A stretch of 45,952 nucleotides of DNA from positions 1 through 45,952 of IMG/VR virus record IMGVR_UViG_3300049139_000096; one strand, given 5' to 3'. The notes below the pieces were generated by a model. It had not been told where the DNA came from. It saw only the letters and a list, made by a program, of their open reading frames with translations, and made no database searches. The number at the start of each line of letters is the position of its first letter. The first letter of the stretch is position 1. The stretch comes from a virus (taxonomy: Duplodnaviria > Caudoviricetes). The position numbers and the translations under genes are program-made. This document shows, piece by piece, positions 2,442 to 29,870 of the stretch.

Positions 2442-2727
2442 GAGTGCCCAAAATAGTGCCCAAGTTGCTGTATGTCAGGCAGTCGGCCTGTTGTAGGCCA
2501 ACCGCTAAGTCATTGCATTGGAAGGAGAAAAAGTGGTGCTGCTAGAGAGATTTGAACTCTCGGCCTCTCCCTTACCAATACAGTTGTAGGTTATTTGTAG
2601 GTCGTTGTGTGGTAAGCACCTTCCCTGTAATGCAAGGCTTTGTCGAGATCTTTGTAGGTCAGTGTCTGTCGTTGTAGGTCAAAACCAGTGCCCGAATTGC
2701 GCACAAGTGCTCATCGGGAGTGCTCAA
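2442..2727. repeat. putative integrase arm-type sites AGTGC[CT]C[AG] flanking the attP core
   Basis: AGTGCCCA at ~2443 and ~2455; AGTGCCCG at ~2687; AGTGCTCA at ~2706 and ~2719. Confidence 0.6.
2534..2578 (-). mobile_element. attP: attP core = 3' half of tRNA-Thr(GGT)
   Basis: Reverse complement reads TTGGTAA-GGGAG-AGGCC-GAGAGTTCAAATCTCTC-TAGCAGCACCA (anticodon loop to CCA); the 5' half of the tRNA is absent; lies near the integrase. Confidence 0.9.
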
Positions 2728-27572: not shown

Positions 27573-27725
27573 TTCGCTCCTTTGCGTTGGTTGTCGTCTG
27601 GTGACAGTTGGAATGTATGTCACTTGTATAGCACCTGTCAACAGGCAAACCGACAGAAATGTTTGCGAGTGAAGATTTTTATGTCTATGATCCTGTGAGG
27701 AAATACCTATCAAGGTTAGGACGTT

Positions 27726-28211
27726 ATGCCTAGAAAAGGCGGGAAGCTGACCCCTATGGAACGGACATGGGCAGAGCGATATGCGGCAACCGGGGATCAC
27801 GTTTATGCAGCCGAAAAGGCCGGATATCGCCAACCGAGTGTTAGAGCGCTGGAAAATATGAAAGACCCTGCAGTCATGGCGACGGTGGCCGTCCAGGTCG
27901 GACGCAAGCTGGAGCAGCACGCGGTCGCCGCTGTTGATGTGCTCGCGGGCATCATGAACAACGTGAAGTCAAAGGATGGCGACCGGATCAAGGCAGCTGA
28001 TCGGATCCTCGTACACCTGGCGGCACGCGGGGAAGGCAACGGCAAAGAACCGCATGAGATGACGCTGGCAGACATCGAGGCGCGCAGGGCAGCGTTGGAG
28101 GCCGAACGCGACGCACTCAATCACATGGCTGCAGAACGCTCGCGACCAGTGATGGAGCTTGAGGCCTCGACGATCGACGAGACAGCCGATGACATGGGCA
28201 TTTTGGGGTAG
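27726..28211 (+). CDS. terS: terminase small subunit
   Basis: LTPMERTWAERY..TG....AAEKAGY.....A...MKDP.V...DRIKAA. Confidence 0.8.
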   Translation: MPRKGGKLTPMERTWAERYAATGDHVYAAEKAGYRQPSVRALENMKDPAVMATVAVQVGRKLEQHAVAAVDVLAGIMNNVKSKDGDRIKAADRILVHLAARGEGNGKEPHEMTLADIEARRAALEAERDALNHMAAERSRPVMELEASTIDETADDMGILG

Positions 28212-28548
28212 ATGTGCGCAACATGTGCGCAAGGTGATAGCGTAAAGCCCTATGATACAGGGCCCCTAACTGTATGAGATAGACAGTTAGCCACGCGCGG
28301 CGAGCCGATCGCCGGCCGGTTAGGCCGCACCCGGCCCCCGGCACCAGTCCGCCGTTCGACCCGGCAGCGTCGTCACCCGCGCGCACTAAAATTCGAGCCG
28401 AAAATACTTTTGGACGTCTTGTCCTGACCGACAAACTAGCATACAAAACCTTACCGCCGGGTAGTGGTAACGCCCACCCCTCGAATATCGGCCTCTGCGA
28501 TCGGTGAGGCGGCGGTGACAATTCTGAGGCGTACAACCTCAACGGAAA

Positions 28549-28635
28549 TGGTCTAGCTCACTGGTGAGAGCGACCCGTTCGTAACGGGTAGGGGCGGGCC
28601 CGACGGGGCTTAGGTTCAATTCCCGCGACCAGCCA
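28549..28635 (+). tRNA. non-canonical tRNA-Thr(CGT)-like RNA
   Basis: TA-GCTC-ACTGGTGA-GAGC D arm; ACCCG-TTCGTAA-CGGGT anticodon arm; GGTTCAATTCC T loop; 3' G-CCA; only a 5-bp acceptor stem and a 16-nt insertion in the T arm. Confidence 0.65.
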
Positions 28636-28718
28636 TTCCCACCCTTGTCGGCCTTCCAGCTTGACAACCAACAGACGCCCGACATACGCTGCCGGACCGA
28701 CACAAAGGAACCGACATC

Positions 28719-29081
28719 ATGAAAATCCTGTTAGACGACAAGGTCATCGAAGACGGCCAAACTCTCGTCATTCCCGCAGACGTCCTGGAAGTGCTCCGTA
28801 CGGCCGGACCCGTAGAGTGGGGGAGCACGGAAAAGCAGACGGACGAGAAGCATGTCAGCGATCTGGAAGACACCCTGCGCCTGACGCGGGAATATTTCGA
28901 CGGTATGCCTGCGGAAACGGCCATGCACGGCGTCTACCTCGCCGGCACGGGCGTCGTGCTAGCGCACACCGGAACCAGCCCCAATTCGCCACAGCACGCC
29001 CGGATCATTGCCGGCCTCTGGAACACCCTCGTCGTCATCGCAGAAGCGCAACGGACTTCGGGGGGGCCGTCTGATGGTTGA
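28719..29081 (+). CDS. hypothetical protein
   Basis: AAGGAACCGACATC-ATG start; TTGACA upstream. Confidence 0.7.
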   Translation: MKILLDDKVIEDGQTLVIPADVLEVLRTAGPVEWGSTEKQTDEKHVSDLEDTLRLTREYFDGMPAETAMHGVYLAGTGVVLAHTGTSPNSPQHARIIAGLWNTLVVIAEAQRTSGGPSDG

Positions 29082-29397
29082 ACTTTTCATTTACACCCTG
29101 TTTCTCCTGCTCGCCGCCCATTGGGTGGCCGATTACCCGCTTCAGGGCGATTTCCTCGCCAAGGCGAAGCAGCAAGGCCCGTTACGGGTCTATCATCTCG
29201 TCGCACACGCTGGCATTCAGGGCGCTGCCGTGACGCTAGTCACCGGGTCGCTGTGGCTCGGCCTGCTGGAATGGCTTCTGCACACCGTGATCGACGACAT
29301 GAAGGTCAACGGCAAGACGACTTTTGCACAGGACCAGGCGCTTCACGTCATTTGCAAGGTTCTGTGGGCAGTTGTCGTAGTTTCGGGGGCCGTCTGA
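29074..29397 (+). CDS. DUF3307 membrane protein
   Basis: AHWVADYPLQ...HAGI...HTVIDD.K...QDQALH. Confidence 0.85.
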   Translation: MVELFIYTLFLLLAAHWVADYPLQGDFLAKAKQQGPLRVYHLVAHAGIQGAAVTLVTGSLWLGLLEWLLHTVIDDMKVNGKTTFAQDQALHVICKVLWAVVVVSGAV

Positions 29398-29492
29398 TGT
29401 TCGTTCCCGAGGACAAGCTGCCACCCTACGATCGCATCGCTGCGGTCCTGGTTATCATCGGCGTTCTCGCCGTGTTTTGGTGGGTGATCTGA
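29397..29492 (+). CDS. small membrane peptide
   Basis: MFVPED...IAAVLVIIGVLAVFWWVI; TGATG coupling at both ends. Confidence 0.55.
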   Translation: MFVPEDKLPPYDRIAAVLVIIGVLAVFWWVI

Positions 29493-29734
29493 TGAAGTTT
29501 TGGCTCGTTCTCTACGTAGCAGGCCAAGTCGGAGGCTCCTGGGGCCCGCTCCCCTACGACGTGGCCGAGTGCATCGAACGCAAGAAGCCTCTGGAGCAGG
29601 AAATCGCGTACATCGTCGAGCACGGCAAGAACCAAGTCGGGGAGGCTGTCGGCGAGCCGCATTTAAGCCGGTTCAAGCAAATGCGCTTTGAGTGCGAACT
29701 GCGCGCCGAGCGCCCTGAAATCGAGGTGGATTGA
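29492..29734 (+). CDS. hypothetical protein
   Basis: MKFWLVLYVAG...; coupled start. Confidence 0.6.
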   Translation: MKFWLVLYVAGQVGGSWGPLPYDVAECIERKKPLEQEIAYIVEHGKNQVGEAVGEPHLSRFKQMRFECELRAERPEIEVD

Positions 29735-29773
29735 CCGCTTGACAAGCCACCAGACATAGGCCAACATCAGCAT

Positions 29774-29870
29774 ACAGATCGAGCCAACCTCCTCCCGGCA
29801 AAATCTGGATCTCCTGTCAACTCCTCCCGGAAAAGAGCCGCCGAACCCTGCCTCGGCGGCTCTTGCCATT
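29774..29870 (+). ncRNA. cuckoo/alpha-r14/CcsR-like sRNA
   Basis: TTGACA-N17-CAACAT promoter; hairpin with a CCTCCTCCC loop (29788-29796); second CTCCTCCC (29821-29828); 12-bp terminator-like stem (29833-29864). Confidence 0.65.

What the first reader, a model, noticed from the sequence alone, without database searches (positions are those of the whole stretch)
28549..28635. tRNA-Thr(CGT) mimic with a 5-bp acceptor stem and an extra hairpin inside the T arm
Seen: perfect D and anticodon arms, a canonical T loop and an encoded G-CCA. However, the acceptor stem is TGGTC/GACCA only, and the T stem GCG[GGCCC-GACG-GGGCT-TA]GG/CCCGC is split by an inserted hairpin. Established: ThrRS identity includes G1-C72/C2-G71, which are absent here. 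All stems remain paired, unlike random pseudogene decay. Inference: a novel tRNA-like ncRNA, such as a decoy for anticodon nucleases or tRNA-targeting toxins, a synthetase or ribosome ligand, or a tRNA needing removal of the 16-nt insert. The phage also integrates at a Thr tRNA.
Basis: partly seen in the sequence, partly recalled or inferred. Interest (0 to 1): 0.75.

Follow-up and report, generated by a model that had tools for sequence, protein, structure and literature searches.

The report
Short-armed threonine tRNA mimic in phage
A temperate phage carries a threonine-tRNA look-alike whose amino-acid arm is two base pairs short and whose T arm holds a 16-base insert predicted to form an extra hairpin; a related copy in another data set keeps the insert and the paired anticodon arm, so it is likely a working RNA that likely does not decode and would act as a decoy for host tRNA-cutting defences.

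Summary
Window 28549-28635 is a tRNA-Thr(CGU)-like gene with canonical D arm, anticodon arm and T loop, a 5-bp acceptor stem, G-CCA, and a 16-nt insert in the T arm. It is the 3' half of a ~185-nt cassette (28453-28635) behind a promoter-like motif; 13 of 13 related phage loci covering this site lack it. One homolog, a low-depth 179-nt contig from another study, aligns gap-free over leader and insert (89%), with two compensatory anticodon-stem pairs and CGU changed to UGU, still Thr (chance about 0.0007). An assembly error or recent decay is therefore unlikely. That contig stops before the acceptor 3' strand, so G-CCA rests on one copy. The 10-bp acceptor/T branch (12 in described tRNAs) and missing G1-C72/C2-G71 argue against decoding; the end instead matches glutamine identity. 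Best guess (0.33): non-decoding decoy for tRNA-targeting defences; unproven, and both copies lack the AriB and OLD cut motifs. Integration at tRNA-Thr(GGU) is unrelated. The scan had not seen this sequence; it noted long-armed phage Thr tRNAs and other mimics on other DNA.

The parts
28419..28447 (+). Promoter-like motif TTGTCC-17 nt-TACAAA; predicted start about 28453-28454
   Evidence: a like motif at the syntenic site in L142, L130, L121, L122 (4 of 13 loci by script; L142 and L130 read the same there) and 5 such motifs in this genome. Not listed by the generic sigma-70 scan. Inferred.
28453..28548 (+). Conserved structured 5' domain: stem 28453-28459/28510-28516 closing a multiloop, hairpin 28526-28540, A-rich linker
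   Evidence: Folds (z -0.9 to -1.8). Homology with contig X2 starts at 28453; 41-nt and 36-nt stretches show no difference. No Rfam family.
28549..28635 (+). tRNA-Thr(CGU)-like domain with 5-bp acceptor stem, G73 and encoded CCA; acceptor plus T branch of 10 bp
28573..28589 (+). Anticodon arm; two compensatory pair changes and C34 to U in the homolog
   Evidence: table 3; simulations
28597..28612 (+). 16-nt insert, predicted hairpin branching from the T stem between positions 51 and 52
   Evidence: Hairpin pair probabilities 0.62-0.87 in the 87-nt form. Homolog gap-free across it with at least 21 of 30 identical letters, against at most 14 of 30 for 55 short-arm tRNAs.
28632..28641 (+). G-CCA end; also 3' strand of an alternative helix 28547-28552/28632-28637 that buries this CCA, followed by a second CCA at 28639-28641
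   Evidence: in the long form the alternative helix has pair probabilities 0.51-0.87 against 0.07 for the 5-bp stem. Not covered by the homolog.
2534..2578 (-). attP-like core: 3' half of tRNA-Thr(GGT) from anticodon loop to CCA, near the tyrosine integrase (context, not part of the RNA)

Best explanation
The phage encodes a tRNA-Thr-shaped domain with a 5-bp acceptor stem and a 16-nt T-arm insert behind a conserved 95-nt leader; it is likely transcribed as one ~185-nt RNA, likely neither charged with threonine nor used in decoding, and would act as a decoy that occupies host enzymes attacking tRNA-Thr. Shown: the anatomy, its absence from related phages at this site, and one homolog with a covarying anticodon arm that still reads Thr. 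Inferred: transcription from the 28419-28447 promoter; trimming to an 87-nt form by RNase P at G-CCA and by 3' nucleases; an L-shaped fold; exclusion from ThrRS, EF-Tu and the ribosome by the missing G1-C72/C2-G71, the 10-bp branch and the T-stem side hairpin, which would let it accumulate without disturbing translation; and binding of a defence nuclease or toxin through the anticodon arm and elbow.
For: Selection on shape: of 9 listed differences in 108 nt, 4 form two compensatory pairs, 1 is the wobble base, 3 lie in a hairpin loop, and 1 breaks a terminal pair. P(two or more compensations) = 0.0007; P(stem intact given 4 changes) = 0.005. G35 and U36 are kept in both copies. Tertiary-core bases (U8, A14, A21, G18, G19, U54, U55, C56, A58, G26.A44) are present. 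Against decoding: bacterial Thr identity needs G1-C72 and C2-G71 (PMC9976931 Table 1); 99 of 102 comparable Thr-anticodon genes fetched here have them; described 7/5, 8/4 and 9/3 tRNAs keep a 12-bp branch (PMC5389517); EF-Tu reads three T-stem pairs (PMC3239215 abstract). tRNA-Thr(UGU/CGU) is a known defence target: PARIS AriB (10.1101/2025.02.04.636281), P2 OLD (PMC12445682), FaRel2 (10.1101/2024.07.05.602228). The cassette occupies a variable accessory slot after terS.
Against: There is no direct evidence of a decoy role. In the OLD system phage tRNAs rescue by resisting cleavage and replacing the host tRNA, not by competition, and extra host tRNA-Thr gave little protection. Neither copy has the AriB site U36-AAUC/A41 or the paired CNG motif at the position I derive (28-30/40-42) from the 12-nt excised fragment, so both resemble resistant tRNAs rather than bait. 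FaRel2 needs G1-C72/C2-G71, absent here. The decoy idea does not explain the conserved 5' domain. Only two copies are known; the second is one contig of depth 3.6 that ends at 28621, and 9 of its 18 differences were not listed. The compensated arm could have come in by recombination with another tRNA gene: alphaproteobacterial tRNA-Ala(CGC) arms are similar. In the precursor the fold that buries the CCA is favoured, and the 10-bp branch misfits the RNase P ruler (PMC4919913).
Confidence: 0.33

Rival explanations
1. Processing handle: the working molecule is the 95-nt 5' domain, a phage small RNA, and the tRNA-like half is cut off by RNase P (t-element or mascRNA logic) or protects the 3' end of an uncut 185-nt RNA.
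For: The leader is as conserved as the tRNA half, and homology begins at the predicted start site. G-CCA fits the RCCA rule and A(-2)A(-1) is among the optimal leaders (PMC9433436 passages). No intrinsic terminator follows the cassette.
Against: A handle does not need a covarying anticodon arm that keeps G35 U36. The 10-bp branch misfits the ruler, and the predicted precursor fold buries the RCCA; RCCA pairing slows RNase P's paper. Leader folding is only weakly better than shuffles.
Confidence: 0.2
2. Decayed tRNA-Thr gene: an ordinary phage tRNA lost G1/C2, gained an insert, and both copies descend from that damaged gene; the CCA is chance.
For: Read in the 7-bp register it is a Thr acceptor (G4-C69, G5-C68, G71, C72) with two top mismatches. 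The T stem is weak. It is absent from 13 of 13 syntenic loci and no third copy was found.
Against: Two compensatory pairs separate two copies that share the damage. No gaps in 169 nt. C at position 73, which this register needs, occurs in 1 of 102 comparable genes. The test for few broken pairs alone is weak (P = 0.09).
Confidence: 0.2
3. Working adaptor of unusual build: either trimmed in the 12-bp register and weakly charged with Thr to replace cut host tRNA-Thr, or charged through its G73/extra arm (SerRS) or Gln-type end and mistranslating ACG.
For: Canonical anticodon loop and core. ACG is the phage's main Thr codon, 267 of 566 in 25 genes. Both copies look resistant to AriB and OLD, as replacing tRNAs do. 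The 5-bp end has all four bacterial Gln acceptor determinants (G73, U1-A72, G2-C71, G3-C70). Allo-tRNAs with G73 and a long arm insert Ser at non-Ser codons.
Against: 10-bp branch in the CCA register, or two top mismatches and C73 in the 12-bp register. Insert next to the EF-Tu-read T-stem pairs (pair numbers recalled). No U35 for Gln/Glu synthetases; of the Ser determinants C72, R4-Y69 and G30-C40 are missing. The Gln-like end follows largely from cutting two pairs off a Thr stem. 17 of 18 comparison genes keep 7+5 pairs.
Confidence: 0.15
4. ThrRS ligand: it binds the synthetase by its anticodon arm without being charged, like the E. coli thrS operator, and so alters threonine charging or thrS control.
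For: G35 U36 kept in both copies; thrS operator hairpins bind ThrRS through anticodon mimics without an acceptor arm (PMC7373986 and PMC9976931 passages).
Against: No clear gain for a phage; operator control is described in cis and in E. coli; a full tRNA body and CCA would not be needed.
Confidence: 0.09
5. tRNA with a 16-nt intron that is spliced out of the T stem.
For: Removing 28597-28612 leaves a perfect 5-bp T stem and a 4-nt variable loop.
Against: The product would still have a 5-bp acceptor without Thr identity. No splicing endonuclease or RNA ligase family was hit among 57 ORFs (PHROGs) and 30 ORFs (Pfam). By eye no bulge-helix-bulge (motif recalled).
Confidence: 0.03

Closest known systems
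Bacterial tRNA-Thr (RF00005; identity set in PMC9976931 Table 1)
   Same: D arm, anticodon arm with G35 U36, T loop and core bases; G4-C69 and G5-C68 if numbered in the 7-bp register
   Different: 5-bp acceptor, no G1-C72/C2-G71, G73-CCA, 16-nt T-arm insert, conserved 95-nt 5' domain
Allo-tRNAs and irregular polycistronic tRNAs (Mukai et al., PMC5389517)
   Same: Non-canonical cloverleaves on phages and mobile DNA; G73 with an extra arm; anticodon not matching acceptor identity; some carry an extra loop or five-stem junction and were not used in translation
   Different: They keep a 12-bp branch (8/4, 9/3 or 7/5) and allo-tRNAs have Sec-like D arms; here the branch is 5+5, the D arm canonical, and the extra hairpin is predicted inside the T stem
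Long-variable-arm tRNA-Thr of phages and some bacteria (seen; also in earlier scan notes)
   Same: Thr anticodon plus an extra hairpin 3' of the anticodon arm; similar length (87-96 nt)
   Different: They have 7-bp acceptors, mostly G1-C72/C2-G71, and an unbroken 5-bp T stem
Phage tRNA-Thr that neutralise PARIS AriB and P2 OLD (10.1101/2025.02.04.636281; PMC12445682)
   Same: Thr UGU/CGU anticodon; anticodon stems lacking the cut motifs
   Different: Those are charged, decoding tRNAs that replace the host copy; this one is predicted not to decode
tRNA-dependent lysogeny (PMC10865867, abstract)
   Same: Temperate phage integrating at a tRNA gene and carrying a gene of the same amino-acid type
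   Different: There the att core is about 10 bp and the phage tRNA complements the broken host gene; here the core is 45 bp and the anticodons differ (GGU against CGU)

Membership tests
Canonical bacterial tRNA-Thr | 7-bp acceptor plus 5-bp T stem | tested here: not met
   5 pairs plus a T stem split by 16 nt
Canonical bacterial tRNA-Thr | G1-C72 and C2-G71 | tested here: not met
   5' bases are AA in the window and show no difference in the homolog
Canonical bacterial tRNA-Thr | G35 U36 in a 7-nt loop with U33 and A37 | tested here: met
Canonical bacterial tRNA-Thr | Charged by ThrRS and decodes ACN | not testable with these tools
   Needs bench work
Allo-tRNA (8/4, 9/3) | 12-bp acceptor branch with 8- or 9-bp acceptor | tested here: not met
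   Only 10 nt lie between the T loop and G73; definition
Allo-tRNA (8/4, 9/3) | Sec-like long D stem with tetraloop | tested here: not met
   4-bp D stem, 8-nt loop
Allo-tRNA (8/4, 9/3) | G73 or U73 with a long extra arm | tested here: inconclusive
   G73 present; the hairpin could lie in the T stem or act as a variable arm
Long-variable-arm phage tRNA-Thr | Extra hairpin with intact 7-bp acceptor and unbroken 5-bp T stem | tested here: not met
   17 of 18 comparison genes score 7 and 5; the window scores 5 and 3
tRNA-dependent lysogeny | Short att core that does not rebuild the host tRNA | tested here: not met
   45-nt core from anticodon loop to CCA, 91% identical to host-type tRNA-Thr(GGT) 3' halves
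tRNA-dependent lysogeny | Phage tRNA able to replace the disrupted one | tested here: not met
   Anticodon CGU against GGU target
RNase P handle (t-element or mascRNA type) | Cleaved by RNase P to release a stable upstream RNA | not testable with these tools
   RCCA and AA leader present; ruler length and precursor fold unfavourable
Other Rfam families (tmRNA, Y RNA, riboswitches) | Score at a family's gathering threshold | tested here: not met
   Only RF00005 reaches threshold in the window; nothing credible for the leader at E up to 10

The most novel reading that the evidence does not exclude
A new class of two-domain phage RNA: a structured 5' domain fused to a tRNA chimera with a Thr anticodon, a Gln-type 5-bp acceptor end and a hairpin grown out of the T stem, built to bind tRNA-targeting defence enzymes (anticodon-arm nucleases or CCA-end toxins, which read the first five acceptor pairs) while staying invisible to the synthetase and EF-Tu. 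It would be an RNA sponge against tRNA-targeting immunity, which my 10 paper searches did not turn up.
Probability: 0.2. Interest if true: 0.82.

Novelty: new variant of a known kind. Interest (0 to 1): 0.5.

Why it matters
Phage tRNAs that beat tRNA-cutting defences are described as cleavage-resistant replacements. A conserved tRNA-shaped RNA that cannot replace anything would point to a second strategy (a sponge) or to an unknown use of tRNA-processing enzymes by phages. A natural 5+5 branch with a T-stem side arm also tests the 12-bp rule directly with RNase P, synthetases and EF-Tu. If it is a decayed gene, it matters little.

Tried and rejected
Homolog searches that found none: blastn of 521 nt and of the 101-nt leader against 50,697 phage records (only the conserved stretch after terS, one tRNA-arm hit and a 24-nt chance hit); plasmids, 0 of 72,556; exact patterns in viral contigs (0 each; one search returned only other tRNAs and covered 7 of 64 parts); exact anticodon-arm pattern in metagenome contigs, 0; long-arm Thr pattern, 13 viral and 120 metagenome loci, none homologous by eye, the latter scan covering 21 of 64 parts; whole genomes, 3 of 401, 1 of 401 and 0 of 391 with matches, all 30-33 nt pieces in the tRNA arms, and 5 handles with only 14-26 nt chance hits; terS peptide scan, 0 confirmed; 23 loci with relatives of the downstream ORF, none with the element. 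No RNA holder listed. Laying run X2 on a tRNA-Ala locus gave nothing, so 9 of its 18 differences, those near the contig ends, remain unseen and the T-arm hairpin is untested for covariation. Run X1 is identical over 27600-29500 but may be the source of the window, so it is not independent. Relaxed ARAGORN gave noise. Rejected: assembly error (the homolog from another study shares the 5' end and insert); tRNA-dependent lysogeny; intron; the leader as a second tRNA (7-bp closing stem and a T-loop-like heptamer by eye, but no anticodon arm and no Rfam hit); linkage to ORF 28719. No covariance model was built (one full copy only). Figures of the papers and bioRxiv supplements were not seen; Supplementary Figures S5-S6 of PMC5389517 (five-stem and E-loop drawings) were seen only as legends and may hold shapes close to this one.

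Full report
Setting. The window is a 45,952-nt virus record in one contig. PHROGs hits (57 ORFs given) show a temperate tailed phage: tyrosine integrase, DNA polymerase, helicase, terminase subunits, major head protein, endolysin. Its terminase is 62% identical to Rhizobium phage RHph_N65; with GapR-like and weak GcrA-like hits and an att core 91% identical to tRNA-Thr(GGT) in an Aminobacter genome, the host is likely an alphaproteobacterium (inferred).

Observation. ARAGORN calls a single tRNA-Thr(cgt), forcing a 7-bp stem with A.C and A.G mismatches on top. Rfam's tRNA model matches positions 3-68 only, at 31.7 bits against a threshold of 29. Ten bases lie between the T loop and G-CCA where a canonical tRNA has twelve, and five precede U8 where seven are normal, so in the CCA register both strands are two bases short. 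The domain folds no better than shuffles.

It is a cassette. Among 26 loci fetched by terminase similarity, 13 cover the slot after terS. None has the element: blastn hits stop before it and, in the closest relative L127 (terminase 88%), resume just after it. ARAGORN found one tRNA in the 26, a normal tRNA-Pro in L127. A promoter-like motif (28419-28447) precedes the element; a like motif stands at this slot in 4 of 13 relatives by script and five times in this genome, though the generic scan did not list it. It predicts a start near 28453-28454, where a 7-9 bp stem opens a structured 95-nt 5' domain (z -0.9 to -1.8).

The homolog. A word search of public runs listed 2 runs. X1 is identical and may be the window's source. 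X2, from another study, holds a 179-nt contig (depth 3.6) that lies on 28453-28621 without gaps, with 18 differences and 10 unrelated letters before 28453. Nine differences are listed: A28573C with T28589G and C28575G with G28587C (two compensatory pairs in the anticodon stem), C28580T (anticodon CGU to UGU, still Thr), three in the loop of the leader hairpin and one at its base. 28484-28524 and 28537-28572 show none, so the AAA-TGGTC start without G1/C2 is shared. The last 30 bases must be at least 21 of 30 identical; 55 short-arm tRNA 3' halves reach at most 14, so the insert is shared. Nine random substitutions in that 108-nt zone give two or more compensations with P = 0.0007 and at most one broken pair with P = 0.09; four random changes in the stem keep all pairs with P = 0.005. 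Limits: one low-depth contig, no view of the acceptor 3' strand or CCA, nine differences unseen (one search did not reveal them), and a possible arm swap with another tRNA gene, since tRNA-Ala(CGC) arms are similar. All other searches found no third copy (listed under Tried and rejected).

Identity. Bacterial Thr identity is G1-C72, C2-G71, G4-C69, G5-C68, G35, U36 (with G34 also listed); Gln acceptor identity is G73, U1-A72, G2-C71, G3-C70 (PMC9976931, Table 1 section and passages read). In the 7-bp register the element keeps G4-C69, G5-C68, G71 and C72, lacks G1 and C2, and would have C73. Among 115 distinct Thr-anticodon genes in loci L150-L282, 102 had at least 6 of 7 acceptor pairs; 99 of these start G1 C2 and 1 has C73 (a biased set, selected for extra length, many looking like intron-bearing archaeal genes). 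In the CCA register the end has all four Gln acceptor determinants, though this follows largely from cutting two pairs off a Thr stem. A further register (28547-28552 with 28632-28637, then C and a second CCA) is favoured in the precursor; pairing of the RCCA slows RNase P, while an AA leader is optimal (PMC9433436, passages), and RNase P measures the acceptor/T stack (PMC4919913, passages).

Can it decode? Described non-canonical bacterial tRNAs keep a 12-bp branch, and some irregular ones on mobile DNA were charged but not used, or not charged (PMC5389517, parts 2-3 of 5 and a supplement search; PMC7590224 and PMC7609411, passages). EF-Tu reads three T-stem pairs (PMC3239215, abstract; that they are 49-65, 50-64, 51-63 is recalled and matches the term counts), right beside the insert. 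Long-armed Thr tRNAs do occur (10 of 10 that I gave ARAGORN were called Thr), but 17 of 18 comparison genes keep 7+5 pairs. I therefore infer that it does not decode. ACG is the phage's main Thr codon (267 of 566), which leaves the adaptor rival open.

Mechanism. The arm under visible selection is the anticodon arm, with Thr identity kept, on a body that seems shut out of charging and delivery. tRNA-Thr(UGU) and, more weakly, (CGU) are cut by PARIS AriB (10.1101/2025.02.04.636281, passages); tRNA-Thr(UGU) by P2 OLD (PMC12445682, passages and section 39); and FaRel2 modifies tRNA-Thr by reading the first five acceptor pairs (10.1101/2024.07.05.602228, passages). A decoy for such enzymes is my best single guess (0.33). 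Against it: OLD rescue works by replacement and not by competition, both copies lack the AriB and OLD motifs, FaRel2 needs the missing pairs, and the leader is left unexplained. Rivals are a processing handle for the 5' domain (0.20, an idea taken from an earlier scan note), a decayed gene (0.20), an odd working adaptor (0.15), a ThrRS ligand like the thrS operator (0.09; PMC7373986, passages) and an intron (0.03). tRNA-dependent lysogeny (PMC10865867, abstract) does not apply: the att core is 45 nt and the anticodon differs.

Novelty. No Rfam family other than tRNA matches. Ten paper searches showed no 5+5 tRNA-like RNA with a T-stem side hairpin or a phage tRNA decoy shown by experiment; the library lacks most subscription journals and figures were not seen. 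The scan had no look-alike of this sequence but has noted long-armed Thr tRNAs and other non-decoding mimics in other phages. Verdict: real, probably functional, a new variant of tRNA mimicry resting on two copies; interest 0.5.

Noticed in passing
window 29769-29868 (+): Weak match to the alphaproteobacterial ar14 sRNA family (29.5 bits, gathering 58.8, E 0.0085) with repeated CCTCCTCCC loops, just before the endolysin gene.
   Followed up: no
window 20431(+), 28419(+), 28661(+), 27641(-), 4877(-): Five promoter-like motifs TTGWCM-17/18-TA; four have GACA directly before the -10 box, suggesting a shared phage regulator site.
   Followed up: partly
window 28212-28424: GC-rich non-coding stretch after terS conserved in related phages (75% over 215 nt in L127); possibly the packaging site.
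   Followed up: no
L150 1486-1581(-), L157 1483-1572(-), L219 1994-2084(+): Three other long-armed genes with Thr anticodons but non-Thr acceptor starts (U1-A72/G2-C71; A1-U72 with a possible G-1:C73 and CCA; G1-C72/G2-C71), all with full 7+5 stems.
   Followed up: partly
L155, L156, L158, L159, L161, L186, L247, L252, L260: tRNA-Thr genes with a long variable arm and intact G1-C72/C2-G71 in large phage and metagenome contigs.
   Followed up: partly
L127 4383-4460 (+): The closest relative carries an ordinary tRNA-Pro(TGG) in the same accessory region, one gene further on.
   Followed up: no
window 28526-28540: The leader hairpin has a 7-nt loop that resembles a Val anticodon loop in both copies, but 3 of 7 loop bases differ, so probably only a variable loop.
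   Followed up: partly
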